A stretch of 47,551 nucleotides of DNA from an uncultured Polyangiales bacterium (GTDB taxonomy: Bacteria > Myxococcota_A > Polyangia > Polyangiales > DASUME01). This document shows positions 15,874-27,706 of the stretch, piece by piece. Each line of letters starts with the position of its first letter. Position 1 is the first letter of the stretch. The notes under the pieces are model-generated. The model did not search any database. It was given only the letters and a program-made list of their open reading frames with translations, and was not told the origin of the DNA. The position numbers and the translations under genes were made by a program. The stretch is taken from assembly GCA_964398415.1 (NCBI GenBank), contig CAYNOM010000001.1, forward strand, positions 1-47,551, given 5' to 3'.

Positions 15874-17426
15874 GCGTGATCCGCTGCCTGCTTGGCCCGA
15901 GCGTGCTGCTGGTGGGGCTCGTGCTCTACGCCTGCGAGCGGCCCCGGCACGACGGCGCAGCCATGACGCCAGAGCCCCTCGAGGCGCTGGACGTGAGGCT
16001 CGGTGAGCCCTTCGAGCTCGCGAGGAGCACCTGCCAGGTCGATGAGGCAAGGACGCTGCTCACCGAGCCGCTGACCGATGGCGAGCTGAAGCGCGTCCCC
16101 CCTGACGTCCACGTGCTCGGCCTGCGCATCGTGTGCGAGGAATCCGACGGGAAGCGCGCTCGCCTCGACGAAGCGCTGCCGCAAGACCTCGTGATCCTCC
16201 TCGAGCGCCCAGGCCAGAGCGCGCTGGCGCCCTCGACACGTCGCTTTGCCCATCTCGACCCGAGCGATGCGCTTTCATTCGAGCTCGAGCCCCCGAGCGG
16301 GCCGGGCGTACGACCACAGAGGCAATACGCAGCGGACACCTGCGCGCGCAAGACACATCGAGCCCCGGAGAAGGCCACGCTCCTCTTGCGGCGTAGACAG
16401 CACGAGATTCGCGTGGGCCTGACGCGGCGCTTCGAAACGCCGGCCTTCGAAGCGGCGCTCGACCTCGCCCTCGGTGCGCTGTGCCTCGATGGCGCGGAAC
16501 ACGCAAGCTCCGAGGCGCTGCGCGAGGCGCGCGCGCTGCATCGCGACATGGTCGGGCGCTTCGGCTATCGCACGCTGCACGTCGAGCACATCGAAGCCAA
16601 GGAGGGAACGTACACGGTCGCGCTGCGTTACGCGCAACCGAAGACGCGCGCGATGCGTACGCAGGCGATGCTCACGCTGCGGCTGTCGGCACAGCACGAC
16701 GCTGGACGCTTCAGGCTCGTGTTGTCGGCCCTCGAACGCGCCGAGGCCCTGCACAAGGCCCTGCGCTGCGAGCGCGAGCTCGACGCATTGAGCTCCAAGG
16801 TCGCGCAGGCTTACGCCGCGCGCTCACAGCCGACGCCCGACTGCAACGTGCTCTCCCTGCTCTTGCCTGGCCCCTGCAGCGCGCTCGACCCAGCGCTCGC
16901 AGAGCCCGTGTTGAAGAGCGCCGCCTCTTGCCTCGACGCGCAGGAGCTCGAGCGAGCTCCCCGACCCTTGCCCGACGAATTTCAACTCACCCTGCGCCGG
17001 GGACGCTCGGGCAGCGCGCTCGATAGAAACCCGCGCTACACCGTGTCGATCTTCGGCAACGGCGCTCTGGTGTTCCACGGTCAGCACTGGGTGAGCGCAC
17101 GCGGGCGCAGTGATGGACGCACGAGCCGTGCGCTGATCGAGCGCCTGTATGCCTACATGCTCGACCTCGACTGGTTCGGTCGACGGGGTGGAGCGTGGTC
17201 GCGCGAGGAGTGCGACCTGAAAGACGAGCGCGGAAACGTCATCACGCTGCACACGAGCCAGGGGGCGCGCATGGTCGTCGATCGCGATGGCTGCCGCGGC
17301 CCCTTCGGTGCAGAGGAGCTCGAGCGCCTGGGCGCTCTGATCGACATGGTGGCGGGCGTGTCGGGCTGGACGTCGCCGCGCCCGAGAAACGCCGACCCGG
17401 GCGTTCACGTCTGGACGGTGGAGTAA
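15870..17426 (+). CDS. hypothetical lipoprotein
   Basis: 518-aa ORF. The N-terminus MSVIRCLLGPSVLLVGLVLYAC has a lipobox-like LYAC. Its start overlaps the upstream stop as ATGA. I recognised no catalytic motif. Confidence 0.6.
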   Translation: MSVIRCLLGPSVLLVGLVLYACERPRHDGAAMTPEPLEALDVRLGEPFELARSTCQVDEARTLLTEPLTDGELKRVPPDVHVLGLRIVCEESDGKRARLDEALPQDLVILLERPGQSALAPSTRRFAHLDPSDALSFELEPPSGPGVRPQRQYAADTCARKTHRAPEKATLLLRRRQHEIRVGLTRRFETPAFEAALDLALGALCLDGAEHASSEALREARALHRDMVGRFGYRTLHVEHIEAKEGTYTVALRYAQPKTRAMRTQAMLTLRLSAQHDAGRFRLVLSALERAEALHKALRCERELDALSSKVAQAYAARSQPTPDCNVLSLLLPGPCSALDPALAEPVLKSAASCLDAQELERAPRPLPDEFQLTLRRGRSGSALDRNPRYTVSIFGNGALVFHGQHWVSARGRSDGRTSRALIERLYAYMLDLDWFGRRGGAWSREECDLKDERGNVITLHTSQGARMVVDRDGCRGPFGAEELERLGALIDMVAGVSGWTSPRPRNADPGVHVWTVE

Positions 17427-17492
17427 CGTACCGCTAAGACCCGGCGACCCACCTCTCGAAAAATGGGCGGCACGCCGCACGAGGAGCAGCAC

Positions 17493-18425
17493 ATGCCGAA
17501 ATGGACGGAAGCCGACATCCCCGAGCTCGATGGCAAGGTGGTCGTCGTCACCGGAGCGAACAGCGGTCTTGGCTTCGAAACGGCACGAGCGCTCACCACC
17601 CACGGCGCCCACGTCATCATGGCGTGCAGAAATCCGGACAAGGCCCAGGCCGCCGCGGCGTCCATTCGCAAAAGCCACCCTCAGGCGTCGCTCGAGCTCG
17701 CGGCCCTCGATCTGTCGAGCTTGTCGTCCGTGCGCGCGTTCTCGAAAGCGCTGCACGACCAGCACGCGCGGCTCGACGTGCTCGTCAACAATGCTGGCAT
17801 CATGGCCATCCCCTACACGAAGACGGTGGATGGCTTTGAGATGCAGTTCGGCACGAACCACCTCGGACACTTCGCGTTGACGGGGCTCGTGCTCGACATC
17901 CTGCTCGCGGCGCCCGCCCCGCGCGTCGTCAACGTGGCGAGCCAGGCTCACTTGATGGGTAAGGTGCGCTTCGACGATCTGGCTTGGGAGCGCGACTACG
18001 CAAAGTGGCCCGCCTACGGCATGAGCAAGCTCGCGAACCTGCTCTTCACCTACGAGCTCGATCGACGGGTCCAGCGCGCGGGCCTCACGCTGCGCTCGAT
18101 CGCCGCCCATCCCGGATATGCCGCGACGAACCTGCAGCACGTGGGCCATGAGCTGTCGGGCTCGAAGATGATGGGCACGATGACACGCCTCGGAAACCCG
18201 ATCCTAGGCCAGTCTGCAGCCATGGGGGCCTTGCCCCAGCTCTACGCCGCGGTGGCCGACGACGCGAACGGCGGTGACTACATCGGTCCACGGGGTCTGT
18301 TCGGAGCGCGTGGCTATCCAACCAAGGCCAAGTCGAACGCGCGCTCGCACGACGCCGACAGCGCGAAACAGCTCTGGGAAGTCAGCGAGCAGCTGACGAA
18401 CGTGCGCTTCGCCGGGCTCGACTAG
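17493..18425 (+). CDS. short-chain dehydrogenase/reductase (classical SDR)
   Basis: ORF 17463..18425 with a likely start at MPKWTE. It has VVVVTGANSGLGFETA (TGxxxGxG), NNAG and the YGMSKLAN (YxxxK) catalytic motif. Confidence 0.88.
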   Translation: MPKWTEADIPELDGKVVVVTGANSGLGFETARALTTHGAHVIMACRNPDKAQAAAASIRKSHPQASLELAALDLSSLSSVRAFSKALHDQHARLDVLVNNAGIMAIPYTKTVDGFEMQFGTNHLGHFALTGLVLDILLAAPAPRVVNVASQAHLMGKVRFDDLAWERDYAKWPAYGMSKLANLLFTYELDRRVQRAGLTLRSIAAHPGYAATNLQHVGHELSGSKMMGTMTRLGNPILGQSAAMGALPQLYAAVADDANGGDYIGPRGLFGARGYPTKAKSNARSHDADSAKQLWEVSEQLTNVRFAGLD

Positions 18426-19168
18426 CGCGGTGACGCGGCATCCTTACGCGCCAGAAAGATGCGGCGCGGCGCGCGTTCGTCCTCCACGTCCGCCTCGTCG
18501 AGCACCTCGACCATGAATCCAGCGCGCTCGAGCAGCTCGACCCAAGTCGCCTCGGGGAACAGCCCGCAGACATGCTCCTCCACGAAGCTGCGCACGCTGC
18601 CGTCGGGCTCTCGTGCGAGGAAGCTATACAGCGTCGCGCTGGTCGTTGCGCTCGGCAAGACCTCGGGAATCCACTCGAGAAAGCGTATGGCGCGCCCGTC
18701 GTCCCCGTCACTTCCCCCACACTCGGTTCCAGGCTCGAAGCGCTCGCGGACATGGTCCGGCACACATACGAAGAGCCCACCAGGGCGAAGGTGCCGATGG
18801 GCGTTCCGAATGGCCAGCTCCAGATCGCCTTCGCTGGTCATGTAGTCGATGGCGTCGTGCGCGAAGACGAGATCGAAGGTCCTCGATAGCGCGAGCGTCC
18901 GCATGTCGCCTTGCACGTGCTCGCAGTCCGGGTTGAGTCGCTTCGACTGGCTCAGCATCGCCTCGCTGATGTCCGTGAGCGTCATGGCGTAGGCCTGCTT
19001 CAGGTAATACGCGTTGTGCCCCCCTCCGCTTCCGAGCTCGAGCATCGTGCGGGACGACGGCGAGCGAGCCTGTATCAGGCGCATGATCTGCTGGTTCTCG
19101 CTCTCGTAGTCCGCGAGGGGAGAGATCAATGGCCACCACGCTGCGAGCGTCTCGTAGAAGGTCTTCAT
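18422..19168 (-). CDS. class I SAM-dependent methyltransferase
   Basis: This is the C-terminal 248 aa of track ORF 18422..19993. The start at ATG 19168 (MKTFYETLAAWW) was checked by hand. Motif I is MLELGSGGGHN. The upstream 275 aa of the track ORF are Arg/Ala/Pro-rich and overlap the hydrolase gene in another frame. Confidence 0.8.
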   Translation of the reverse strand: MKTFYETLAAWWPLISPLADYESENQQIMRLIQARSPSSRTMLELGSGGGHNAYYLKQAYAMTLTDISEAMLSQSKRLNPDCEHVQGDMRTLALSRTFDLVFAHDAIDYMTSEGDLELAIRNAHRHLRPGGLFVCVPDHVRERFEPGTECGGSDGDDGRAIRFLEWIPEVLPSATTSATLYSFLAREPDGSVRSFVEEHVCGLFPEATWVELLERAGFMVEVLDEADVEDERAPRRIFLARKDAASPR

Positions 19169-19188
19169 GTCATCGCCACCAGGTGCCG

Positions 19189-20139
19189 TCAGTCGAGCGC
19201 GCCCTTCCTTTCGAGACGCGCAAGGAACGCGCGGAGGTCCTCCGCCACTCGCTCGGGTGCCTCTTCGTGCGGGACGTGGCCGAGCGTGGGGTACGTGATG
19301 AGCCGGCTCTCCTTCAGCGCCGACACGAACTGCGTCGCCTGCTCGACGCGAGCCAAGCGATCGCGCCGTCCCCAGAGGATCAGCACCGGCCGTTCGATGC
19401 GCGCGAGCAGATCGCGCGTCAGTGCGTGGTCGGGTTCCATGGCGAACTGGGCGATCAGCATCTCGCGCGTGCTTCGACGTTGCAGCGCGCGGTGGTAGCG
19501 AGCGACGTCGCGGGCTCGGATCCGCAGCGGATGGCCGTATGCAAACGCCAAAGACAACGCCGTCGCGGCACGGGGGAGGCCCAGGCGAAACAGCGTGCGC
19601 GTGGGCTCGAACGTCAGCGCGCGAAACGGCCAGGGCGCCCTCTCGTGGAAGCCCGCAGGATCGATCAACACCAGCGCCCGCACGAGCTGCGGGTACTGCA
19701 CCGCCACGTGCAGCGCGACCAGCGCGCCGAGTGAGTTGCCCACGAGCACGGCCTCGCGCAGGCCTAACGCCTGAAGCTCGCAGCCGAGTCGCTGGGCAAA
19801 GCCCGCAGCGTCGGTGCGCCCAGACGGCCACGCGTCGCTCTGGCCAAAGCCTGGCAGATCGAAACGAACGATGCGGTAGGCGTCGCACAGAAGCGCGGCG
19901 AGCTCCTCCCAGGTTTCGAGCGACGCGCCTGAGCCGTGCAACAACACCAGGGCTCGCCCCTCGCCAGTATCCCTGCGGTGCAGCTTCGGCCACGGGCCCC
20001 TGTCCGGAGGGTCCGAACGTCCCTCGGCGGCAGTCACGTCATCCCTCGGCAGCTCATCCTCGGTTTCCGCGGCGCAGGCTACCGCGCCTCTTGCAGAGTG
20101 CCACTCGCCATATAGTTTGTTCACCATTCGGTGCAGCAC
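19189..20139 (-). CDS. alpha/beta-fold hydrolase
   Basis: 316-aa ORF with LVLLHGSGASLETWEEL...FDLPGFGQSD, the nucleophile elbow GNSLGA, and GHVPHEE near the C-terminus. Confidence 0.85.
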   Translation of the reverse strand: MLHRMVNKLYGEWHSARGAVACAAETEDELPRDDVTAAEGRSDPPDRGPWPKLHRRDTGEGRALVLLHGSGASLETWEELAALLCDAYRIVRFDLPGFGQSDAWPSGRTDAAGFAQRLGCELQALGLREAVLVGNSLGALVALHVAVQYPQLVRALVLIDPAGFHERAPWPFRALTFEPTRTLFRLGLPRAATALSLAFAYGHPLRIRARDVARYHRALQRRSTREMLIAQFAMEPDHALTRDLLARIERPVLILWGRRDRLARVEQATQFVSALKESRLITYPTLGHVPHEEAPERVAEDLRAFLARLERKGALD

Positions 20140-20286
20140 CGCGGCGCCTCACTCGCCCCGACGGGGGTCCGCGCGACAGCGTGACGAGCTGGTTTCAAAG
20201 CACCAAATTGTGGGTTGTGCCGCATACGCGGTGTGTGCGAAAGCCCTTGACTGGCGCCAATGTAGGCGTAGAAGCTCTGTCAAACA

Positions 20287-20319
20287 TTGCGCAGCAAGTG
20301 CGTCTTCGCGCCTGCGCAA
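20287..20319. promoter_or_regulatory. dyad symmetry element TTGCGCA-N19-TGCGCAA in the divergent intergenic region (candidate operator or leader hairpin)
   Basis: Read directly: ttgcgca at 20287-20293 and tgcgcaa at 20313-20319. A second, partly overlapping complementarity pairs gcaagt (20292-20297) with acttgc (20327-20332). Confidence 0.2.
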
Positions 20320-20394
20320 GCGAAAGACTTGCGTCCCCGTCCCCTATCGTCGCCGCGAGCGCGCTGCCCGCGCGCACCGCGTTGGAGAGCTTTC

Positions 20395-21789
20395 ATGTTT
20401 CGACGCCGCACCGCCGACCGCCAAGGACACGCCATCGTGATGGGGGCGAGCGTCGCGGGTTTGCTGGCCGCACGCGTGCTGGCGGAGCACTTCGAGACCG
20501 TCACCGTGCTCGAGCGCGATGCCCTCCCGAACGAACCGGACCACCGCAAGGGCCTACCCCAGGCGCATCACCAACACGTGCTGCTGTCACGGGGGCGGGC
20601 GTTGATCGAGCGCTGGTTTCCTGGGTTCGATGCCTCGCTCAAACAGGCGGGAGGACCACTCGCCGACTACACGCGCGACTTCGTCCTCGTCTCGCACGGC
20701 CGTCGCCTGCCTCGCTTCCCTTCCGGCATCGAGCTGCGCCTGTGCCGCCGCATGCACATCGACCATGCTCTCCTCACGCTGCTGGCCGGCGAGCCGCGCG
20801 TACGCGTGCGTGACCGGAGCGCGGTCAAGGGACTGCTCTGGAGCGCTGACCGAAGCCGCGTGCTGGGCGTCGAGCTCGCGAGCGCCGAGCGCTTGCACGC
20901 CGAGCTGGTGGTCGACGCCACCGGTCGCGGCTCGCGCGTTTCGAGATGGCTCTCGGACGCTGGCTACGAGGCGCCGCGCGAGCAAGTGGTGGACGCGCAC
21001 CTCGGCTACGCGACGCGGTTGTTCGAGCGCGCTGAGCACGACGCGGCCGACTTCCGCGCCGTGGAGGTGGCCGCAGTGCCTCCGCACAACCCGCGCGCGG
21101 CCGGCCTCTGGGAGATCGAAGGCGGTCGTTGGCTCTTGACCTTGATCGGCACGGCCGGACAGCACCCGCCCACGGACCACGAAGGCTACATGGCGTTCGC
21201 GGCGCAGCTCGCCGACCCGCTGGTGTACGAGACCATTCGGCGCGCCCGCCCACTTACCGATGCGGTGCCCTTCACCGGCACGGCCAATCGCTTCCGACGC
21301 TACGAGCGCTTGAAGCGCTTTCCGAGCGCGTTGCTGGTCGTGGGTGACGCGCGCTGTGCGTTCAACCCACTCTATGGGCAGGGCATGACGATCGCCGCGC
21401 TCGAGGCGGACGCCCTGCACCGTGCATTGCGCAAGTCGCGCAGCAGAGGTGAGCTCGACCACCTCGCGCTGCGTCGTCACTTCGAGCGCAGCATTGCCCC
21501 AGTGCTCGCCACCGCATGGTTGCTGGCAACCTCGGAGGACCTGCGTTGGCAAGAGACCGAGGGCGAGCGCAACCCGCTTTCGTCGCTGGCGCTCGCCTAC
21601 TTCGAGCAGCTGGTGGCCCTGAGTCCCGAGAGCCCTGCACTGATCGAGACGTTCCTCCGCATCACCAATTTCGAGCGTAGTCCGCTCGCGCTCGCCCGCC
21701 CGCGAATCCTCGTCGACCTCGCGACGGCGTACGTCCGCCGCAGACAGCCTCGCGCCCCTGGGCCGTCGACGAAACCGCTCGCCGCGTGA
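20395..21789 (+). CDS. FAD-dependent monooxygenase (group A flavoprotein hydroxylase-like)
   Basis: ORF 20287..21789 with the likely start at ATG 20395 (MFRRRTADRQGHAIVMGASVAGLLAARVLAE). Supporting motifs are a dinucleotide-binding GxSxxG, VVDATGRGS, and GDARCAFNPLYGQGM (the GD...P..GQG flavin motif). Confidence 0.85.
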   Translation: MFRRRTADRQGHAIVMGASVAGLLAARVLAEHFETVTVLERDALPNEPDHRKGLPQAHHQHVLLSRGRALIERWFPGFDASLKQAGGPLADYTRDFVLVSHGRRLPRFPSGIELRLCRRMHIDHALLTLLAGEPRVRVRDRSAVKGLLWSADRSRVLGVELASAERLHAELVVDATGRGSRVSRWLSDAGYEAPREQVVDAHLGYATRLFERAEHDAADFRAVEVAAVPPHNPRAAGLWEIEGGRWLLTLIGTAGQHPPTDHEGYMAFAAQLADPLVYETIRRARPLTDAVPFTGTANRFRRYERLKRFPSALLVVGDARCAFNPLYGQGMTIAALEADALHRALRKSRSRGELDHLALRRHFERSIAPVLATAWLLATSEDLRWQETEGERNPLSSLALAYFEQLVALSPESPALIETFLRITNFERSPLALARPRILVDLATAYVRRRQPRAPGPSTKPLAA

Positions 21790-21835
21790 ATCGCCAACAG
21801 CTTTCGCTGCTGCACTTCGAGCCTCTGGAGAGAAG

Positions 21836-22921
21836 ATGGACTTCGTATTCGCGACGCAGGCAGTGAACCCGCTCCCCAGCCTGAGGCTTCCGTTTCTTGC
21901 CTCTCTGGCTCGCCCACGACGTGACGGGCGCTTCCGCTTCAGTCCCGAGGAGCGACGGTTCTACCTGATGCAACACGGCTCGAGCACGAGCGCGTACTTC
22001 AACCTGCAGCCTGGAGTCGAGTACTTCGACATGCCCGGGGTCGGCTTCCTGAGCTACTTCACCTACGAGGGGCTACTCGGGCGTGAGCACCTCGTGTTCA
22101 CAAACCCCGTGTGCTCCGACCAGAACCTCGGTCTGCTGATCGACGCCTTCTTGCGCGAGGAGGGAGGCGACCCTGTGTTTGTTGGCATCGATCCCGCGGG
22201 CGCCCGCGTGCTCGAGTCGCGGGGCTACTCGGTCAACCAGATGGGCGTGGAGTTCAACGTTCCCGTGCAGACGTTCAAGGTCACCGGGCGTGGCATGAAG
22301 CACCTGCGCTCAGTGCAGCACTACGCTGAGCGCGGCGTCACGGTATCGGAGCTCCCCTGGTCCGAGGTGGATGCGAGCGAGGTCTCGCGCATCTCGTCGG
22401 CCTGGCTCGGCAAGAAAGCCGTCAAGACCCGTGAGATCAAGCTGCTGAGCCGTCCTCCGGAATGGGAGGACGCGTGGGGCGTGCGCAAGTTCTACGTCTT
22501 CGTCGAAGGACGCCTGGTCGGCTTCGTGTTCTTCGATCCTTTCTTCCGGGATGGTCGCATCGTCGGCTACTGCGCCAACATCCTGCGCAGCCTGCCGGAC
22601 GTGCAGCCTCGGGGCGTTCTCGACTTCGCCATCCTCGAAGCCATCAAAGTCTTTCGGCAAGAGGGAATCGAGACTTTGGCTCTGGGTCTTGCACCTTGCT
22701 ACGACGTCCAGAGCCACCTCAACGAACGCGTCATCCTGCGGCGACTGCTGCAGCTGTTGTTTCGACGCGGCAGCTTTCTGTACAGCTTTCAAGAGCTCGC
22801 CTTTCACAAGACGCGTTGGCGAGGTGCAGAGCAACGCGTGTACGCGTGCCTCCGGGGGACACGAGGGGTCAGCGACCTGCGCGCGGCGATGCTCGCCCTG
22901 CGCAGCATGAACGTGGTCTAA
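21836..22921 (+). CDS. stand-alone DUF2156 protein (homologue of the MprF/LysX C-terminal aminoacyl-phosphatidylglycerol synthase domain), no membrane domain
   Basis: 361-aa ORF with GGAGA 5 nt upstream of the ATG. Length and sequence pattern match the soluble catalytic domain of aminoacyl-PG synthases: YLMQHGSSTSAYFNLQPGVEYF...GFLSY, KHLRSVQHYAERGV, WLGKKAVKTREIKLLSRPP and LYSFQELAFHKTRW. No hydrophobic helices are visible. Confidence 0.7.
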   Translation: MDFVFATQAVNPLPSLRLPFLASLARPRRDGRFRFSPEERRFYLMQHGSSTSAYFNLQPGVEYFDMPGVGFLSYFTYEGLLGREHLVFTNPVCSDQNLGLLIDAFLREEGGDPVFVGIDPAGARVLESRGYSVNQMGVEFNVPVQTFKVTGRGMKHLRSVQHYAERGVTVSELPWSEVDASEVSRISSAWLGKKAVKTREIKLLSRPPEWEDAWGVRKFYVFVEGRLVGFVFFDPFFRDGRIVGYCANILRSLPDVQPRGVLDFAILEAIKVFRQEGIETLALGLAPCYDVQSHLNERVILRRLLQLLFRRGSFLYSFQELAFHKTRWRGAEQRVYACLRGTRGVSDLRAAMLALRSMNVV

Positions 22922-22936
22922 CGCTCGGAGTGACTG

Positions 22937-23605
22937 ATGGAGAAGACCCACGACAACGACTACGGCGTGGTTGCCGCTGTCTATGACGCCGCCGCGCACC
23001 TCTACAGCGGTGGTCAGATTCGCGCTTGCAAGCAGTTCCAGATTCCAGAGATCAGGCCGCGCGATCGCGTCTTGTATGCGGGCGCTGGCACTGGCTATGA
23101 CGCGGCCCTCGCCGCACGTCGTGGCGGACGCGTCACCGTCGTCGAGCTCTCTCGGAAGATGGCCGACCGAGCGCGGCGCACCTTCGTCGATTTCGGCGTG
23201 GTCGACGATGTCGAGCTCGTGGTCGGCGACGTGCTCGCGCACGATCGTCCCGATACTTACGACGTCGTGGCGGCAAACTTCTTCCTCAACGTGTTCTCCC
23301 CCGAGCTGATGCCGCGTGTGCTGTCGCACCTCGCGTCGCAGCTTCGCCCCGAGGGCAAGCTGCTGATCGCAGACTTCGCGCCGGCGCGCACCACGCGGCT
23401 CGAGCGCGGCTTTCAGCAGGCCTATTTCGGCCTTGCGCGCACGGCGTTCCAGTTGCTGTCCAACAACGCAGCTCACCCCCTGTACGATTACGCGGAGGTC
23501 TTGCGATCGCTCGGTCTCGAGCTCACCTGGAGCCAGGACTTCCCGCTCTTCGGGGTAGGGCCCGCCTGGTATCGATCGATGGTCGCCCATCGAAGAAGCG
23601 CATGA
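22937..23605 (+). CDS. class I SAM-dependent methyltransferase
   Basis: 222-aa ORF with motif I VLYAGAGTGYDA, an acidic motif II residue in VVELS, and post-I/III-like DVVAANFFLNV...LRPEGKLLIADF. Confidence 0.85.
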   Translation: MEKTHDNDYGVVAAVYDAAAHLYSGGQIRACKQFQIPEIRPRDRVLYAGAGTGYDAALAARRGGRVTVVELSRKMADRARRTFVDFGVVDDVELVVGDVLAHDRPDTYDVVAANFFLNVFSPELMPRVLSHLASQLRPEGKLLIADFAPARTTRLERGFQQAYFGLARTAFQLLSNNAAHPLYDYAEVLRSLGLELTWSQDFPLFGVGPAWYRSMVAHRRSA

Positions 23606-23609
23606 GCCG

Positions 23610-25970
23610 ATGTACGCCGCGCTGGTTCGTTTGCGTGTTCCGATAGCCGTCGTGCTCTGCGCAGTCGTGGCGACGGCAGCGCTGGGGATCGCCCGCGCGG
23701 TCGTACCAGACAACTCGATCACGGCCTGGTTTCTGCCTGACGATCCAGCGGTGCAGAGCTACGAGCGCTTCCACGAGCACTTCGGCAACGATGAGGTGAT
23801 CCTCATCCAAGTGCACGAGCCGACGGGCGTGTTGACGCGAGACGTCCTCTCGCGTCTGCAGAAGCTCACGCACGCACTCGAGAACATCGACGGCATCGCC
23901 CGGGTGCACTCGGTCGTGACGGTCGAGGACGCCATCGACACGCCGGAAGGCATTCGCTTCGAGCGCAGGTTCAGCGATCCCTTACCGGACGATGCCGGCT
24001 TGATGCAAGCGGCGGCCGCGGCGCGCAACAGCGTCTTGTTTCGTGACCGCCTGCTGAACCCCTCGGGCACGCGCACGCTCTTGTGGGTCGAGATGGCGGT
24101 GTCCGATCGCGTGGACGACGAGCGCGGTCGCATCGTTCAGCAAGTCCGTGCGCAATCGGACCTCATCCTCGCTGGGCTCGAGCATCCCATGGCCGGATTC
24201 GGCGTGACCTACGCTGGGATCGACGAGCTCACCAAGCGCGACTTCGGGCTCTTTCTGGGTCTGTGTTACGCGGTGATGGTGGCATTTCTCGCTTGGGTCT
24301 TTCGCGAGCGCAGATTCGTCGTTGCCACCCTCGGCGTGATGCTTCTCAGCAGCGTCGCGGCGCTCGGGAGCCTCGGACTCGCGGGACATCGCATCAACAT
24401 GGTCACGTCCGTGCTGCCGACGTTGATCCTGGTCCTCGGCATCGCAGATGCGATTCACATGCCGGCTGCGTTCATGCTCGAAGAACGCGCACGTCCTGAT
24501 GCATCGCGTTTCGACATCGCGGTCGCGGCGCTGCGCCGTGTCGCGCTGCCCTGTCTGCTCACCAGCGCCACCACCATGGCGGGCTTCGCCTCGCTCGCCG
24601 TCTCGAAGATGGCGGTGATGTCCCAGCTCGGGCTGTTTGCGGCGATTGGGATGGCAGCGGCCTTGCTGCTGACGCTTTCGCTGATGACCGTCGCGTACAT
24701 GTCTGGCGCGAGGGCGCCCGCCACGGCGGCCCAGTCGTGGCTGTCGGCTTTGCTCGAAGCAGCCCACGCCTTCGTGACGCGGCGCACGGCTTGGGCCGCG
24801 GGCGTCCTGTTGACGTTGTCGGGGTGTGCTGTCTGGGGGGCACTGCAAGTCGAGGCAGACACCTATAGCCTCGGCTATCTTCCCGAGGACAGTCGCATCG
24901 TGACGGAGCACGAACAGATCGTCCGCGGCTGGGGCCACTACAGTCCGCTCGACTACACGATCGTGCCAAAGGAGGGGCAGCGCGTCGACAGCCCCGAGCT
25001 GTTGTCCAAGGTGGCCGAGTTCGTGCGCGAGGCGAGTCAGCTCGAGCAGGTTCACTACGGATTCGCAGCCCACGACTTCCACCGCGCGGTCGCTCAGGCA
25101 TTCGGTGCAGAGGTTCGCGCCGACGAGCCGCTCGCCAGCGACGTGATGGCCCAGGTCGGCCTGTTGCTCGAGGGCCAGGCGCAAGACCTCGAGTGGGATC
25201 AAACGAAGCCCGCCTACTTCGACAACTTCCTCGCACCGTTTCGCACGCGCGACGCCGACCTGGGCCGCGTCACCTTGGTGGTGGACATGATGAGCGCCCG
25301 GGGATTCGCGGAGCTGTTGGCCAAGCTCGAGCCCATCGCCGAGCGCACGCTGGGCGAATACGCTGCGCTGTCGCCGAGCGGCTACCTGCCGCTGTACGTC
25401 GGCGTGATCGACCACGTGATCTCGGCGCAGGTGCAGAGCTTCTTCATGGCGCTCGGCATCATCTTCGCCATCATGCTGATCTGGACGCGCTCCCTACGCC
25501 TTTCGTTGATCAGCCTCGTTCCGAATGTGTTCCCCGTGCTCGTGATGCTCGGTGTGATGGGTGCGTTCGATATCGACCTCGACATCGCCACGGCGACGGT
25601 GGCTGCCATCGTATTTGGCGTCGCGATCGACAACACCATCCACTTCATGCACCACTATCGCGAAGGGAAACGGCAGGGCCTCTCGTGGGACGATGCCCTC
25701 GCGCACTCCTATCGCAGTGCCGGTCATCCCGCGTTGATCACGGCGTGCTCGTTGCTCATCGGTTATCCCGTGCTGATGTTCGCGGCGGTCAAGCCCGTGT
25801 TCTATTTCGGGTTGCTCACGACGCTCGCTACGGTAGCCGCGCTCGTCGGAGATCTGTTGCTCTTGCCGCTGTTGCTGCGTTTCTTCGATCGTGCCCCTAG
25901 CCTTGCACCGTCATCTCGCGCGACGACGGCCGAGGTTGCGCTCGTCGACGGGCTTTCTTCCAGGAGATGA
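23610..25970 (+). CDS. MMPL/RND-superfamily transporter (HpnN-like lipid exporter architecture)
   Basis: 786-aa ORF with two repeats of one TM helix, a soluble loop and five TM helices. The N-terminus has the typical MMPL pattern (DNSITAWFLPDDPAVQSYERFHEHFGNDEVILIQV). The start lies 4 nt after the methyltransferase stop. Confidence 0.85.
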   Translation: MYAALVRLRVPIAVVLCAVVATAALGIARAVVPDNSITAWFLPDDPAVQSYERFHEHFGNDEVILIQVHEPTGVLTRDVLSRLQKLTHALENIDGIARVHSVVTVEDAIDTPEGIRFERRFSDPLPDDAGLMQAAAAARNSVLFRDRLLNPSGTRTLLWVEMAVSDRVDDERGRIVQQVRAQSDLILAGLEHPMAGFGVTYAGIDELTKRDFGLFLGLCYAVMVAFLAWVFRERRFVVATLGVMLLSSVAALGSLGLAGHRINMVTSVLPTLILVLGIADAIHMPAAFMLEERARPDASRFDIAVAALRRVALPCLLTSATTMAGFASLAVSKMAVMSQLGLFAAIGMAAALLLTLSLMTVAYMSGARAPATAAQSWLSALLEAAHAFVTRRTAWAAGVLLTLSGCAVWGALQVEADTYSLGYLPEDSRIVTEHEQIVRGWGHYSPLDYTIVPKEGQRVDSPELLSKVAEFVREASQLEQVHYGFAAHDFHRAVAQAFGAEVRADEPLASDVMAQVGLLLEGQAQDLEWDQTKPAYFDNFLAPFRTRDADLGRVTLVVDMMSARGFAELLAKLEPIAERTLGEYAALSPSGYLPLYVGVIDHVISAQVQSFFMALGIIFAIMLIWTRSLRLSLISLVPNVFPVLVMLGVMGAFDIDLDIATATVAAIVFGVAIDNTIHFMHHYREGKRQGLSWDDALAHSYRSAGHPALITACSLLIGYPVLMFAAVKPVFYFGLLTTLATVAALVGDLLLLPLLLRFFDRAPSLAPSSRATTAEVALVDGLSSRR

Positions 25971-25973
25971 AAC

Positions 25974-26465
25974 ATGATCACGATACGCGTCGAGACTCAC
26001 AAGCATGCGATCGTCCACGCCACGTTGCGTTCGGTCTTCGAGCTGCTCAGGAACGTGGAGGACGTCGCGCGCATGATGCCTGGCGTCGAGCGCACCGAGT
26101 CCGTGGGACCAGGCCGTTATCGCTGCGTGCTCAAGCCCCAGTCGACCCTGGGCATGACGTTCCAGGGCGACTACGTCTGCGCGTATCGAGACAATGGACG
26201 CGACGAGATTTCTTGGACCTCGCCCGAGGGCAACATGAAGTCGGAGGGCACGTTTCGCATCGCGGGTCGTGATCATGCCGTGGCGCTGTCCCTCTCGGTC
26301 GTCAGCGATGTCGAGCTGCCTTTTCCACGGATGGTACGCGTGCCAGCCCAGAAGTATGCGGAGTACGTGACGAGTCGCGGCGTGGACGTTCAGCTCGCGC
26401 GCATTCGAGACCGCCTCGAGGCCAAAGTCGCGAGCTACCCACAGGTCGCAACGCTCGCCGAGTGA
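25974..26465 (+). CDS. SRPBCC-superfamily (START/CoxG/polyketide-cyclase-like) ligand-binding protein
   Basis: 163-aa ORF. The pattern RVETHKHAIVHATLRSVFELLRNVEDVARMMPGVE...G..KSEGTFRI is typical of SRPBCC folds. The start lies 3 nt after the MMPL stop. Confidence 0.6.
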   Translation: MITIRVETHKHAIVHATLRSVFELLRNVEDVARMMPGVERTESVGPGRYRCVLKPQSTLGMTFQGDYVCAYRDNGRDEISWTSPEGNMKSEGTFRIAGRDHAVALSLSVVSDVELPFPRMVRVPAQKYAEYVTSRGVDVQLARIRDRLEAKVASYPQVATLAE

Positions 26466-26755
26466 AGATCTGCCTGGGCGTGTGAACAACTCGGCCGCCG
26501 CACTGTGACCGACTCGCAGACAGGGCGACCTCACCCGTCCGCGAGAATCGCTTGTATCTTCGAGCGACACATCGTGGCACGCAGCGTGCAGTGGCAAGCC
26601 CACGTCGCATGCGCTCACGGGCCTGCATGCGCAGGAGCGAGGGTTGACCGATGTGTGTAGACGTTGCGGAGAACGAGACCTTACCTGGTGGGCCGCCCAA
26701 CACGGCAACGCGAGCGGCCAGGGGGGCGAACAGGCAGCGTGATCGCGTGAACACA

Positions 26756-27706
26756 ATGCTCGCCCTGGGCCTGCTCGCGCTCGGCGGGTGCCAGGACAGC
26801 GTAGGTTTCGCGGTCGACGACGGCGGGGCCATCGACGGCGGGGCCATCGACGGAGAGGCCCCGATCGGCTCAGATGCCGACACCAGCTCGCAGGGCACGG
26901 ACGGCGCAGCATCGGGCGACGGCAGCCCGAGCGGTGGCGACGGCTGTATGCCACCCGACATGCTCCTCGTGCTCGACCGCACGATGAGTATGTCCAAGAC
27001 CCCCGCCGGCCCTTCACCCGAGAACACGACGGAGGGCCGTCGCGCGTCGAAGTGGCACCTCGCGATCGCTGCGTTCGAAACGCTCACGTCGCAGCTCGAC
27101 GGAACGATTCGCTTCGGCCTCGAGCTCTTTCCCAAGGACCCGGGCAAAGACCAATGCCTGACCCTCGCACAACGCATCGAAGGTCAGACCGCCACGAACG
27201 CGAAGTGCCAGGGCGGTGAAGTGTTGGTAGTGCCAGCGCTCGAGACAGGCGATGCCATCGCGAGTGCGCTCGATCCGGAGACAACCCTCTTGTGCACGAG
27301 CACGCCGATCGGAGCGGGCCTGGCCACGGCGCGCGCGGCCCTCTCCGACATCGCGAGTCAGGCGCGCAAGCAGTACGCCGTGCTGCTCACGGATGGCAGG
27401 GACACGTGCGACGAGTCGCTGTCGCTCACGAATGCGCAGAACCTCGTCTCCGACGGCGTTGGCCTGTACGTGATCGGATTCGATGGCTCGGGCAAGGGCG
27501 TCGACAACGGCCACCTCAACGACCTCGCCTGCGCGGGCCACACGGCCAAGGGCTTTCCTGACGCATGCGTGGAAGACGCCGCAGGCAACTTCACCGCGAA
27601 GGATCGCGAGGGCGCCGCGCTGTACATCCTCGCCCAAGATCAGACACAGCTGATCGACGAGCTGAAGAGCGTGGCCGGCCAGGTCTGCTGCAACTGCGTG
27701 ATCTGA
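26756..27706 (+). CDS. von Willebrand factor A (VWA) domain lipoprotein
   Basis: ORF 26651..27706 with the likely start at ATG 26756 (MLALGLLALGGC, lipobox). The MIDAS-like motif is LVLDRTMSMS. Later blocks GLELFP, TPIGAGL and VLLTDGRDTC fit a VWA fold. The C-terminus is Cys-rich (VCCNCVI). Confidence 0.8.
   Translation: MLALGLLALGGCQDSVGFAVDDGGAIDGGAIDGEAPIGSDADTSSQGTDGAASGDGSPSGGDGCMPPDMLLVLDRTMSMSKTPAGPSPENTTEGRRASKWHLAIAAFETLTSQLDGTIRFGLELFPKDPGKDQCLTLAQRIEGQTATNAKCQGGEVLVVPALETGDAIASALDPETTLLCTSTPIGAGLATARAALSDIASQARKQYAVLLTDGRDTCDESLSLTNAQNLVSDGVGLYVIGFDGSGKGVDNGHLNDLACAGHTAKGFPDACVEDAAGNFTAKDREGAALYILAQDQTQLIDELKSVAGQVCCNCVI
26822..26851 (+). repeat. perfect 15-bp tandem duplication (ggcggggccatcgac x2) inside the VWA lipoprotein linker
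   Basis: Read directly: 26822-26836 equals 26837-26851, encoding GGAID-GGAID. A degenerate third copy follows. Confidence 0.9.

What the first reader, a model, noticed from the sequence alone, without database searches (positions are those of the whole stretch)
21836..22921. DUF2156 (aminoacyl-PG synthase catalytic domain) encoded without any flippase or membrane domain
The ORF is 361 aa, and I see no hydrophobic helices in it. Canonical MprF/LysX proteins carry this domain behind a large polytopic flippase domain or fused to a lysyl-tRNA synthetase. Here the only membrane partner in the operon is an MMPL transporter. That pairing suggests a split arrangement of synthase plus exporter, or a non-lipid acceptor as in VlmA-type enzymes.
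Basis: partly seen in the sequence, partly recalled or inferred. Interest (0 to 1): 0.6.

Follow-up and report, generated by a model that had tools for sequence, protein, structure and literature searches.

The report
Stand-alone tRNA-type aminoacyl transferase cassette
The gene encodes a real, soluble relative of the enzyme domain that bacteria use to attach amino acids to membrane lipids. Its conserved partners are an epoxidase and a methyltransferase rather than a flippase or exporter, which points to an undescribed lipid or polyketide modification pathway.

Summary
Window 21836-22921 (+) encodes a 361-aa protein that covers the whole DUF2156/LPG_synthase_C profile (E 9e-44). No 19-residue stretch is hydrophobic enough for a membrane helix. 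The model is confident (pLDDT 89) and its best structural matches are the solved aminoacyl-PG synthase domains.

Lacking a flippase is not rare. The 150 nearest cluster representatives have a median length of 347 aa and none is polytopic.

What is new is the context. The gene belongs to a clade that almost always sits in the order MonCI/Lsd18-type flavin epoxidase, DUF2156, small SAM methyltransferase. This order recurs in Myxococcota, Bdellovibrionota and Gammaproteobacteria. In some lineages the pieces are fused, either epoxidase::DUF2156 or DUF2156::methyltransferase.

The RND/MMPL exporter and the SRPBCC-like gene that complete this operon are local additions. Orthologues of the RND elsewhere never accompany the cassette.

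The cassette was not found in 60 related genomes. It lies in a roughly 10-kb variable segment.

Most likely (about 45%) the enzyme transfers an amino acid from aminoacyl-tRNA onto an oxygenated lipid-like acceptor made by the epoxidase. The product would then be N-methylated and, in this organism, exported.

The acceptor, the amino acid and tRNA dependence are all inferred. No look-alike was noted elsewhere in the scan.

The parts
19189..20139 (-). Alpha/beta-fold serine hydrolase (316 aa, GNSLGA nucleophile motif, no N-terminal hydrophobic segment), transcribed divergently from the operon. It is a possible esterase for the aminoacylated product.
   Evidence: It is the best match in the organism's own genome to the cassette-linked hydrolase of locus L055 (E 1.6e-15, 24% identity). 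Alpha/beta hydrolases recur next to cassette genes or fused to related DUF2156 proteins. Orthology to those hydrolases is not shown.
20140..20394 (.). 255-bp intergenic region between the divergent hydrolase gene and the operon. It is the presumed promoter region.
   Evidence: Sequence read. The consensus scan found no sigma-70-like site, so the promoter is not identified.
20395..21789 (+). FAD-dependent monooxygenase of the MonCI/Lsd18 (polyether epoxidase) family, 464 aa, with the GASVAG dinucleotide-binding motif at residues 16-21.
   Evidence: phmmer against PDB sequences gives MonCI at E 1.1e-74 over residues 4-443 and Lsd18/LasC at E about 1e-63. The next hit is a halogenase at 5.5e-05. 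Orthologues lie directly upstream of the DUF2156 gene, or are fused to it, in 13 other loci.
21836..22921 (+). The finding itself: a stand-alone soluble DUF2156 (tandem-GNAT, aminoacyl-PG-synthase-type) transferase of 361 aa.
   Evidence: The Arg of the (D/N)-x-x-R motif is kept as R251. The basic helix G-x-x-M-K-x-L-R (residues 151-158) is also kept.
22937..23605 (+). Small class I SAM-dependent methyltransferase (222 aa), 15 nt downstream of the DUF2156 gene.
   Evidence: Pfam Methyltransf_25/11/23/12 at E 2e-14 to 2e-11. There is no specific NCBIfam assignment; the best is CpaM at 84 bits against a cut-off of 180. Orthologues follow the DUF2156 gene in every cassette locus read, and are fused to it in P0083 and P0089.
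23610..25970 (+). RND-superfamily transporter (786 aa, about 12 hydrophobic segments) of HAE3/MMPL/HpnN-like type, 4 nt downstream of the methyltransferase gene. It is the presumed exporter of the product in this organism only.
   Evidence: TIGR00921 HAE3 at E 5e-48 (below cut-off) and Pfam MMPL at 1.6e-15. It is not conserved with the cassette.
25974..26465 (+). 163-aa protein with weak SRPBCC/CoxG-like similarity, 3 nt downstream of the RND gene. It is a possible lipid-binding carrier.
   Evidence: Pfam COXG at E 8.9e-05 (just over cut-off) and Polyketide_cyc2 at 8e-04 (below cut-off). The assignment is weak.

Best explanation
The protein is the transferase of a compact, horizontally mobile three-enzyme cassette: a MonCI-type flavin epoxidase, a stand-alone DUF2156 transferase and a small SAM methyltransferase.

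Proposed mechanism:
1. The flavoenzyme oxygenates a C=C bond (or an aromatic ring) of a hydrophobic acceptor. Candidates are an unsaturated acyl, alkyl or polyene chain or another common lipid. This gives an epoxide that opens to a hydroxyl, or a hydroxyl directly.
2. The DUF2156 enzyme binds an aminoacyl-tRNA from the normal cellular pool through its conserved basic helix. It transfers the amino acid onto that oxygen as an ester, using the conserved Arg as in aminoacyl-PG synthases.
3. The methyltransferase methylates the product, most simply on the free alpha-amino group, giving a more permanently cationic head group.
4. In this genome the RND transporter and the SRPBCC-like protein move the product out of the inner membrane. 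The divergent alpha/beta hydrolase may remove the amino acid again.

What is shown: the fold and family of each protein, the conserved gene order, the fusions, the joint inheritance and the accessory status of the locus.

What is inferred: the order of the steps, tRNA dependence, the identity of the acceptor and of the amino acid, the site of methylation and the role of the hydrolase.
For: Fold and family:
- PF09924 matches at E 9e-44.
- L-PGS 4v36 matches at E 1.5e-15 over residues 37-344.
- Foldseek gives TM 0.75-0.80 to solved DUF2156 domains.

Conserved catalytic features:
- R251 aligns with the Arg of the D-L-M-R strand of both solved synthases.
- The helix G151..K155..L157-R158 aligns with the basic helix of L-PGS and A-PGS.
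- The roles of that Arg and helix are as described in PMC6103681.

Partner enzyme:
- The upstream flavoprotein matches MonCI at E 1e-74 and Lsd18 at 1e-63.

Gene order:
- The epoxidase lies upstream of, or is fused to, the DUF2156 gene in this window and 13 other loci. The methyltransferase lies downstream or is fused in all 17 cassette loci read.
- These loci come from three phyla.

Fusions:
- L015 is a single 775-aa protein with both domains. L040, L044 and P0094 are similar.
- P0083 (55% identical) and P0089 are DUF2156::methyltransferase fusions.

Joint inheritance:
- All linked or fused members fall in one clade of the DUF2156 tree (support 84/98).
- The cassette epoxidases form a clade (100/99) that excludes three paralogues in the organism's own genome. 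The sub-clades of the two trees are congruent.

Lipid-like context:
- This window has the RND HAE3/MMPL-type transporter and the SRPBCC-like gene.
- L004 has a thioester reductase, ACP and KS next to the cassette.
- L078 has a reductase, AT, KR, two ACPs and two KS/CLF pairs.
- L112 has a fatty-acid desaturase.
- P0169 is a reductase::DUF2156 fusion.
- Alpha/beta hydrolases recur as neighbours or fusions. This parallels the synthase/hydrolase pairs described for aminoacyl-PG and ergosteryl-aspartate (PMC7334510).
Against: - There are no experimental data, and no member of this clade is characterised.
- An epoxide is not a nucleophile. The scheme therefore needs ring opening or true hydroxylase activity, and the minimal cassette encodes no epoxide hydrolase. 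The linked hydrolases have a Ser nucleophile (GNSMGG), not the Asp of epoxide hydrolases.
- The Asp of the D-L-M-R motif is replaced by an invariant Asn (N248) in all 28 aligned family members. That Asp is kept in both solved synthases and in the organism's own second DUF2156 protein. Donor binding may therefore differ.
- In L015, L040 and L044 the cassette sits among housekeeping genes with no lipid or polyketide genes nearby. The acceptor is then either a common metabolite or encoded elsewhere.
- The RND partner is unique to this locus.
- The methyltransferase has no specific family assignment.
- In the small 16-row tree the monophyly of the cassette DUF2156 proteins is unresolved.
Confidence: 0.45

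Rival explanations
1. Split MprF. The protein makes ordinary aminoacyl-phosphatidylglycerol (or aminoacyl-diacylglycerol) at the inner face of the membrane. The RND/MMPL transporter replaces the missing flippase domain. The epoxidase and methyltransferase modify something else.
For: The closest solved relatives by sequence and by fold are aaPG synthase domains. The catalytic Arg and the basic helix are kept. The RND gene is 4 nt downstream of the methyltransferase gene in the same operon. The genome has no canonical MprF with an N-terminal flippase domain.
Against: The RND is absent from all other cassette loci read. Its orthologues elsewhere lie in a different conserved module. The epoxidase and the methyltransferase are physically fused to the DUF2156 domain in several lineages, which is hard to reconcile with unrelated functions. 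The NCBIfam MprF equivalog scores 73 bits against a cut-off of 600. The Asp of the D-L-M-R motif is an invariant Asn here.
Confidence: 0.15
2. Natural-product tailoring enzyme of the VlmA/PacB/Sbb17 kind. An amino acid from aminoacyl-tRNA is added to a hydroxyl or amine of a secreted polyketide-type metabolite. The epoxidase and methyltransferase are further tailoring steps, and the RND acts as an efflux or self-resistance pump.
For: MonCI and Lsd18 are polyketide-tailoring epoxidases. L078 places the cassette inside a type II PKS-like cluster (two KS/CLF pairs, two ACPs, KR, AT, reductase, thioesterase). L004 places it beside a reductase, ACP and KS. Sbb17/Sba18 and FemX are the next structural neighbours. 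tRNA-dependent GNAT-fold enzymes in antibiotic pathways are documented in PMC6103681.
Against: Most cassette loci, including this window, have no PKS, NRPS or other scaffold genes nearby. The fold matches lipid aminoacyl transferases better (TM 0.75-0.80) than Sbb17 or FemX (0.55-0.62). No dedicated aminoacyl-tRNA synthetase or tRNA gene accompanies the cassette. This rival overlaps the best explanation if the polyketide is itself a membrane lipid.
Confidence: 0.2
3. tRNA-independent amino-acid adduct formation. As proposed for the DUF2156-type domain embedded in leinamycin-type PKS, the protein adds a free amino acid as a nucleophile (carboxylate, amine or thiol) to an electrophilic carbon. 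Here that carbon would be the epoxide made by the fused or adjacent epoxidase, and the adduct would then be methylated.
For: DUF2156 domains occur inside trans-AT PKS modules next to a PLP domain (table in PMC3870968). The family is therefore not restricted to lipid aminoacylation. My recollection that this domain adds cysteine without tRNA is not from a tool. The epoxidase::DUF2156 fusions would suit hand-over of a reactive epoxide, and this removes the need for a hydrolase. The Asp-to-Asn change in the donor-side motif allows a different donor.
Against: The basic helix that binds the tRNA acceptor stem in this superfamily is conserved with L-PGS and A-PGS. The catalytic Arg is invariant. No PLP-dependent partner is present. 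No sequence comparison with the PKS-embedded domains could be made here.
Confidence: 0.15
4. Decaying remnant of an MprF gene with no function.
For: None, beyond the absence of a membrane domain.
Against: The protein covers the full profile with no stops. Forty residues are invariant across 28 homologues from several phyla. At E <= 1e-30 there are 179 cluster representatives, and nearly all of the 150 listed are of the same short length. The gene order is conserved and there are fusions.
Confidence: 0.02

Closest known systems
Aminoacyl-phosphatidylglycerol synthase domain of MprF (B. licheniformis L-PGS 4v36, P. aeruginosa A-PGS 4v34/4v35, Rhizobium LpiA 6lv0)
   Same: It has the same Pfam domain over its whole length and the same tandem-GNAT fold (TM 0.75-0.80). 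The Arg of the D-L-M-R strand and the basic helix are conserved.
   Different: It has no flippase domain and no membrane segment. Sequence identity is only about 20%. The Asp of the motif is an invariant Asn. The conserved partners are an epoxidase and a methyltransferase. The acceptor is probably not PG.
Fungal ErgS, a freestanding DUF2156 that makes ergosteryl-3beta-O-glycine (PMC8913301), and ErdS/ErdH (PMC7334510)
   Same: ErgS is a freestanding DUF2156 that uses aminoacyl-tRNA from the cellular pool to esterify a lipid that is not a glycerolipid. In the ErdS system a partner alpha/beta hydrolase reverses the modification. This is the best functional analogy.
   Different: This protein is bacterial. 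No sterol genes are linked to it. It is coupled or fused to an epoxidase and a methyltransferase, which the fungal systems lack. The phylogenetic relation was not tested, because no fungal sequences were available to the tools.
VlmA (valanimycin) and other tRNA-dependent GNAT-fold tailoring enzymes (PacB, DhpH/K, FzmI, Orf11/Sbb17/Sba18)
   Same: These are stand-alone soluble enzymes that use aminoacyl-tRNA within a small-molecule pathway, next to oxidative tailoring enzymes (PMC6103681). Sbb17 and Sba18 are structural neighbours.
   Different: The structural match is weaker (TM 0.5-0.6) than to the lipid synthases. No dedicated synthetase gene is present. Most loci lack scaffold-forming genes.
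DUF2156 domain embedded in leinamycin-type trans-AT PKS modules (PMC3870968)
   Same: It shares the Pfam family and an association with polyketide or ACP-bound chemistry, as in loci L004 and L078.
   Different: Those domains lie inside megasynthases and are followed by a PLP-dependent domain. Here the protein is free-standing or fused to a flavoenzyme or a methyltransferase, and no PLP enzyme is present.
MonCI / Lsd18 polyether epoxidases (for the partner gene 20395-21789)
   Same: The alignment runs the full length at E 1e-74 and 1e-63, with the same FAD-binding motifs.
   Different: No modular polyether PKS and no epoxide hydrolase/cyclase is linked. The cassette epoxidases form their own clade apart from three paralogues in the same genome.

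Membership tests
Bifunctional MprF (aaPG synthase/flippase) | C-terminal DUF2156 tandem-GNAT catalytic domain | tested here: met
   PF09924 at E 9e-44 over the full profile. Foldseek TM is 0.75-0.80 to solved domains.
Bifunctional MprF (aaPG synthase/flippase) | N-terminal polytopic flippase domain in the same polypeptide | tested here: not met
   The protein is 361 aa, with a maximum KD19 of 1.32 and no segment at or above 1.6. The upstream gene is a complete flavoprotein with its own stop.
Bifunctional MprF (aaPG synthase/flippase) | Score above the NCBIfam equivalog cut-off (NF033480, 600 bits) | tested here: not met
   It scores 73.4 bits.
Bifunctional MprF (aaPG synthase/flippase) | Phosphatidylglycerol as acceptor and Lys- or Ala-tRNA as donor | not testable with these tools
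   This needs biochemistry. The Asp-to-Asn change in the D-L-M-R motif hints at a difference but proves nothing.
LysX (LysRS-MprF fusion) | Fusion to a lysyl-tRNA synthetase | tested here: not met
   There is no synthetase domain. NF002821 scores 16 bits against a cut-off of 742.
Aminoacyl-tRNA transferases of the GNAT superfamily (functional class) | Positively charged helix between the GNAT halves that binds the tRNA acceptor stem | tested here: met
   Helix 152-160 of the model carries G151, K155, L157 and R158. These align with the basic helix of 4v36 and 4v34 and are invariant or nearly so in the family. The role of the helix is as described in PMC6103681 and PMC7334510. Binding itself was not tested.
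Aminoacyl-tRNA transferases of the GNAT superfamily (functional class) | Catalytic Arg or Lys that polarises the aminoacyl ester carbonyl | tested here: inconclusive
   R251 is invariant and aligns with the Arg of the D-L-M-R strand in both solved synthases. That this is the Arg named in the review rests on my recollection of residue numbers, not on a tool.
Freestanding DUF2156 lipid aminoacyl transferases (ErgS type) | DUF2156 as the only domain, with the donor supplied by a separate synthetase | tested here: met
   It is a single-domain protein. No synthetase or tRNA gene lies in the window or in 11 cassette loci.
Freestanding DUF2156 lipid aminoacyl transferases (ErgS type) | Sterol acceptor, and common ancestry with the fungal clade | not tested
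   No fungal sequences could be obtained. No sterol genes are linked.
VlmA-type natural-product transferases | Location in a biosynthetic cluster with scaffold genes and a dedicated synthetase | tested here: not met
   The window has no PKS, NRPS or synthetase genes near the operon. Only 2 of 17 cassette loci (L004, L078) have ACP/KS genes.
Epoxidase-DUF2156-methyltransferase cassette (defined here) | MonCI-like flavoprotein gene directly upstream and a small SAM methyltransferase gene directly downstream, on the same strand | tested here: met
   The gaps are 46 nt and 15 nt. The families are shown. The same order occurs in 13 other loci.

The most novel reading that the evidence does not exclude
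The cassette makes a class of bacterial lipid that has not been described. An amino acid is taken from aminoacyl-tRNA and esterified to an oxygen introduced by a MonCI-type epoxidase into the hydrocarbon part of a common lipid or polyene, not onto a glycerol head group or a sterol. The amino group is then N-methylated to give a cationic, betaine-like group. This would be the first tRNA-dependent aminoacylation of a non-glycerolipid acceptor in bacteria. It would also assign a function to a large family of freestanding bacterial DUF2156 proteins.
Probability: 0.3. Interest if true: 0.8.

Novelty: new variant of a known kind. Interest (0 to 1): 0.6.

Why it matters
tRNA-dependent lipid aminoacylation is known for phosphatidylglycerol, cardiolipin, diacylglycerol and glycolipids through MprF-type enzymes, and for ergosterol in fungi. 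It affects resistance to cationic peptides and membrane properties.

The search here shows that bacteria and metagenomes hold a large family of short, soluble DUF2156 proteins. There are 179 cluster representatives at E <= 1e-30, and no experimental study of them appeared in the library searched.

The conserved and sometimes fused trio of epoxidase, DUF2156 and methyltransferase gives a concrete three-gene unit. It can be expressed in a laboratory host to find the product. If the product is a new aminoacylated lipid, it widens the known chemistry of lipid aminoacylation and of MonCI-type epoxidases beyond polyether antibiotics.

If the reaction turns out to be tRNA-independent, it would redefine what this domain family can do.

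Tried and rejected
1. Missed membrane domain or frameshift upstream. Rejected: the upstream ORF is a complete MonCI-like flavoprotein with its own stop, and a Shine-Dalgarno sequence precedes the ATG.

2. Single-sequence scan of genome contigs. It found nothing. The alignment-based scan was needed and gave 57 loci.

3. Presence in relatives. The protein was not found at E <= 1e-30 in 60 related genomes, including 9 of the same genus.

4. RND as a dedicated partner. Rejected for the family.

5. Cassette-linked alpha/beta hydrolases (c17) as epoxide hydrolases that would supply the hydroxyl. Rejected: they carry a G-N-S-M-G-G serine motif and an N-terminal hydrophobic anchor.

6. Homology between the window's SRPBCC-like protein and the unknown secreted protein c18 of the Oleiphilus loci. 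No similarity was found.

7. A repeated epoxidase-plus-transporter module at the three paralogous epoxidases of the organism's own genome. Their neighbours are unrelated to one another and to this operon.

8. A type II PKS-like partner cluster in the organism's own genome. Contig C125 has FAAL, ACP, KS, a KS-like gene and an aminotransferase. It has no link to the cassette and no reductase orthologue.

9. Dedicated tRNA genes near the cassette. None were found.

10. Specific assignment of the methyltransferase. Only generic class I hits were found.

11. Literature. Twelve held papers mention DUF2156, and none describes this cassette or a bacterial freestanding member with an epoxidase. The structural paper on L-PGS and A-PGS (PMC4553816) is not held, so residue roles come from the review and from my own recollection.

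12. The promoter and terminator scan was uninformative.
Full report
OBSERVATION

The ORF at 21836-22921 on the + strand encodes 361 residues followed by a stop. It matches Pfam PF09924 (LPG_synthase_C, formerly DUF2156) at E 9.3e-44. The match covers residues 43-338 and positions 4-297 of the 298-position profile.

A Kyte-Doolittle scan with a 19-residue window peaks at 1.32, so no segment reaches the 1.6 threshold. The RND protein two genes downstream gives about twelve such segments under the same test.

The ATG is preceded by GGAGA four bases upstream. The closest homologue, P0003 (68% identical), aligns from the first residue. A public gene call of the same protein (P0002, 317 aa) starts at Met45. 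I take Met1 as the start.

The upstream gene (20395-21789) ends with its own stop 46 nt before the ATG and is a complete flavoprotein. No membrane domain has therefore been lost to a frameshift.

An AlphaFold2 model built on 28 homologues has mean pLDDT 89.3 and pTM 0.86. Its best PDB matches by Foldseek are the solved DUF2156 domains: 5vrv, L-PGS 4v36, A-PGS 4v34/4v35, LpiA 6lv0 and the full-length MprF cryo-EM structures. E-values are about 1e-20 to 1e-17 and TM-scores on the target 0.75-0.80. The tRNA-dependent peptide synthases Sbb17/Sba18 and FemX follow at TM 0.55-0.62.

HOW UNUSUAL IS A DUF2156 WITHOUT A FLIPPASE?

A phmmer search of 1.84 billion cluster representatives gave three counts:
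- 1640 proteins at E <= 1e-3;
- 583 at E <= 1e-10;
- 179 at E <= 1e-30.

Among the best 150, the median length is 347 aa. 136 have no hydrophobic 19-residue window at all, 14 have one marginal window, and none is polytopic. The thirteen longer proteins are fusions to other soluble enzymes, not to flippase domains.

The protein therefore belongs to a large family of stand-alone soluble DUF2156 proteins. Forty positions are invariant across 28 aligned members from several phyla, which excludes a decaying MprF fragment.

WHAT IS CONSERVED AROUND IT

The operon reads as follows:
- flavoprotein, 20395-21789;
- DUF2156, 21836-22921;
- class I SAM methyltransferase, 22937-23605;
- RND transporter of HAE3/MMPL/HpnN-like type, 23610-25970;
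- a 163-aa protein with weak SRPBCC/CoxG similarity, 25974-26465.

The gaps are 46, 15, 4 and 3 nt.

The flavoprotein is not a generic oxidoreductase. It aligns over its whole length with the polyether epoxidases MonCI (E 1.1e-74) and Lsd18/LasC (E about 1e-63). The next PDB hit is a halogenase at 5.5e-05.

An alignment-based scan of one genome per prokaryotic species returned 57 loci that encode relatives. Contig look-ups for metagenomic homologues added more. Three results stand out.

1. Conserved order. The order epoxidase, DUF2156, methyltransferase recurs in the following loci:
- Oleiphilaceae (L007, L008, L010, L012);
- a Pseudomonadales MAG (L004);
- a Polyangiaceae MAG (L055);
- metagenomic contigs L078, L089 and L111;
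- the contig of P0003.
Start and stop codons often overlap.

2. Fusions. The epoxidase and the DUF2156 domain form one polypeptide in a Halobacteriovorax MAG (L015, 775 aa, both domains confirmed by Pfam). The same is true in two Oleiphilaceae MAGs (L040, 831 aa; L044, 810 aa) and in P0094 (804 aa). The DUF2156 domain and the methyltransferase form one polypeptide in P0083 (638 aa, 55% identical to the query) and in P0089 (562 aa).

3. Tallies. Of the cassette loci where the upstream side can be read, 14 have the epoxidase adjacent or fused and one (L076) lacks it. All 17 have the methyltransferase adjacent or fused.

In a maximum-likelihood tree of 66 family members, every epoxidase-linked or fused member falls in one clade of 19 rows (support 84/98). 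Sister clades hold the Marinobacter, Halomonadaceae, Hahella and Oleiphilaceae proteins that lack the epoxidase. In a small 16-row tree this monophyly is not resolved, so I call it moderately supported.

The cassette epoxidases form a clade with 100/99 support that excludes three MonCI-like paralogues of the organism's own genome. Their sub-clades mirror those of the DUF2156 tree: (window, L055, L078, (L089, L111)); the four Oleiphilus loci; and L040 with L044. The three genes thus travel together as a unit.

THE EXPORTER IS A LOCAL ADDITION

No other cassette locus with readable DNA has a homologue of the window's RND.

Orthologues of the RND (43-49% identical) occur in 11 of 300 other genomes sampled from the phylum. 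None has the cassette genes within 1.5 kb. In six of them, read over 6-10 kb on each side, five place the RND in a different conserved module. That module holds a UbiA-family prenyltransferase, an AMP-binding enzyme, a DUF3419 protein, the RND and an HMG-CoA-reductase fusion protein.

This suggests that the transporter family carries lipids. It also shows that the family was recruited to the cassette only here. The contig of the closest homologue, P0003, has a 165-aa gene and a truncated gene after the methyltransferase, but its DNA could not be fetched.

ACCESSORY STATUS

The protein was not found at E <= 1e-30 in 60 related genomes: 9 of the same genus and 51 of the same order.

DNA and protein comparisons with same-genus genomes show that the flanks are conserved. 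These are the DciA-like gene and the lipoprotein gene on one side, and trpF and the che operon on the other. The segment from about 17.4 to 27.7 kb is replaced by an unrelated 12 kb in a complete genome of the same genus. G+C falls from 67-69% to 64% across the operon.

The cassette's distribution across Myxococcota, Bdellovibrionota and Gammaproteobacteria points to horizontal transfer.

WHAT THE ACCEPTOR MIGHT BE

Variable neighbours of the cassette repeatedly belong to lipid or polyketide chemistry:
- L004 has a thioester or fatty-acyl reductase, an ACP and a ketosynthase.
- L078 has a reductase, a malonyl transferase, a ketoreductase, two ACPs, two KS/CLF pairs, a hydrolase and a thioesterase.
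- L112 has a fatty-acid desaturase and a hydrolase.
- The Oleiphilus loci have a Baeyer-Villiger-type monooxygenase, a membrane-anchored serine hydrolase, a short-chain dehydrogenase and an unknown secreted protein.
- L055 has a similar hydrolase.

In the wider family, DUF2156 is fused to a reductase of the NAD_binding_4 type (P0169), to alpha/beta hydrolases (P0114, P0166, P0225) and to a GMC oxidoreductase (P0135).

In the window, an alpha/beta serine hydrolase (19189-20139, minus strand) is transcribed divergently from the operon. Synthase/hydrolase pairs are the rule for aminoacyl-PG and for ergosteryl-aspartate (PMC7334510).

Against this, the fused cassettes of L015, L040 and L044 lie among housekeeping genes such as NifU, glucose-6-phosphate dehydrogenase, FtsJ and YebC. 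There the two-gene unit is self-contained. Its substrate must be either a common cellular molecule or one encoded elsewhere.

MECHANISM PROPOSED

The alignment with the two solved synthases shows that the Arg of the strand motif D-L-M-R is kept as R251. It is invariant in the family. The helix G151-x-x-x-K155-x-L157-R158 corresponds to the basic helix of L-PGS and A-PGS.

According to the review PMC6103681, an Arg polarises the aminoacyl ester and a positively charged helix binds the tRNA acceptor stem in all aminoacyl-tRNA transferases of this fold. That R251 is that particular Arg rests on my recollection of the residue numbering (D765/R768 in A-PGS), not on a tool.

On this basis I propose four steps:
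1. The flavoenzyme oxygenates a double bond or ring of a hydrophobic acceptor.
2. The DUF2156 enzyme esterifies an amino acid from the ordinary aminoacyl-tRNA pool onto the resulting oxygen. No tRNA or synthetase gene is linked.
3. The methyltransferase methylates the product, most simply on its amino group.
4. In this organism the RND and the SRPBCC-like protein export the product.

The families, the order, the fusions and the joint inheritance are shown. The step order, the donor, the acceptor, the amino acid and the methylation site are inferred. I put this at about 45%.

WEAK POINTS AND RIVALS

An epoxide is an electrophile, not a nucleophile. The scheme needs ring opening or a genuine hydroxylase activity. 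The linked hydrolases have a serine nucleophile, not the aspartate of epoxide hydrolases.

The Asp of the D-L-M-R motif is an invariant Asn (N248) in this family. It is Asp in both solved synthases and in the organism's own second DUF2156 protein. This is unexplained and may mean a different donor.

The rivals follow from these points:
- A split MprF that makes ordinary aa-PG, with the RND as flippase (15%). The fusions and the non-conserved RND speak against it.
- A VlmA- or Sbb17-like tailoring enzyme of a secreted polyketide (20%). Only 2 of 17 loci have scaffold genes.
- A tRNA-independent addition of a free amino acid to the epoxide (15%). This is by analogy with the DUF2156-type domains embedded in leinamycin-type PKS (domain strings in PMC3870968). 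The conserved basic helix speaks against it.
- A dead remnant, which is excluded (2%).

COMPARISON WITH KNOWN SYSTEMS

As a fold and family, the protein is a DUF2156 aminoacyl-PG-synthase-type domain.
- It is not a member of the bifunctional MprF family. It has no flippase domain and scores 73 bits against the 600-bit equivalog cut-off.
- It is not a LysX.
- The nearest functional analogy is the fungal freestanding DUF2156 enzyme ErgS, with the ErdS/ErdH synthase/hydrolase pair (PMC8913301, PMC7334510). Ancestry with those could not be tested.

The library holds only 12 papers that mention DUF2156. None describes a bacterial freestanding member linked to an epoxidase and a methyltransferase. 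The scan's own index has no look-alike on other DNA.

VERDICT

The feature is real, and the stand-alone nature by itself is ordinary. The conserved and sometimes fused epoxidase-DUF2156-methyltransferase cassette appears to be undescribed. It is a new variant of a known kind, and it gives a direct three-gene experiment. Interest is 0.6.

Noticed in passing
own genome contig C328 (locus L002:717-2159, minus strand): The genome's only other clear DUF2156 protein is also non-canonical. It is about 480 aa, with the DUF2156 domain at the N-terminus and 4-5 hydrophobic helices at the C-terminus, rather than an N-terminal flippase domain. The long 702-aa ORF call has an Arg/Ala/Ser-rich N-terminal part that looks like an over-extension. 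No canonical MprF was found in this genome, which is 99.7% complete but fragmented.
   Followed up: partly
window 18422-20139, minus strand: The 523-aa ORF 18422-19993 is probably an over-extended call. An alpha/beta hydrolase gene (19189-20139) overlaps it in another frame. The methyltransferase domain occupies only the last roughly 240 codons (about 18422-19150). Two genes are therefore likely here.
   Followed up: partly
loci L115-L119 (RND orthologues in other genomes of the phylum), e.g. L119:1343-12845: A conserved module holds a PEP-utilising (PPDK-like) enzyme, a UbiA prenyltransferase, an AMP-binding enzyme, a DUF3419 protein, an RND transporter and an HMG-CoA reductase fused to a kinase-like domain. 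It looks like an isoprenoid-lipid head-group and export cluster.
   Followed up: no
own genome contigs C297:3553-5043, C10:7214-8692, C101:12038-13360: There are three further MonCI-like epoxidase paralogues (33-36% identical to the operon's) in unrelated gene contexts. None is linked to a DUF2156 gene.
   Followed up: partly
own genome contig C125 (locus L120:3355-9498): This cluster holds an ACP, a fatty-acyl-AMP-ligase-like enzyme, a ketosynthase, a KS-like protein and a 565-aa class I/II aminotransferase (alpha-oxoamine-synthase-like). It may be a sphingolipid-like or amino-lipid pathway.
   Followed up: no
L078:2569-15269: The cassette is embedded in a type II PKS-like cluster: a reductase, AT, KR, two ACPs, two KS/CLF pairs, a hydrolase and a thioesterase-like protein. 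By my recollection only, this resembles aryl-polyene-type clusters.
   Followed up: partly
L025:7857-10207 and L028:7941-10258: In Oceanospirillaceae, a DUF2156 protein outside the cassette clade is followed, 2-3 nt downstream, by a different FAD_binding_3 monooxygenase. This is a second, independent pairing of this family with a flavin monooxygenase.
   Followed up: no
window 17400-27700: This roughly 10-kb segment between the lipoprotein gene and trpF is replaced by an unrelated 12 kb in a complete genome of the same genus. G+C dips to 64% over the operon.
   Followed up: partly
L008:5683-6453, L007:2361-3200, L012:5756-6457, L040:9639-10373: An unknown protein of about 250 aa with an N-terminal hydrophobic leader and no Pfam or NCBIfam match lies next to the cassette in four Oleiphilaceae loci.
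   Followed up: no
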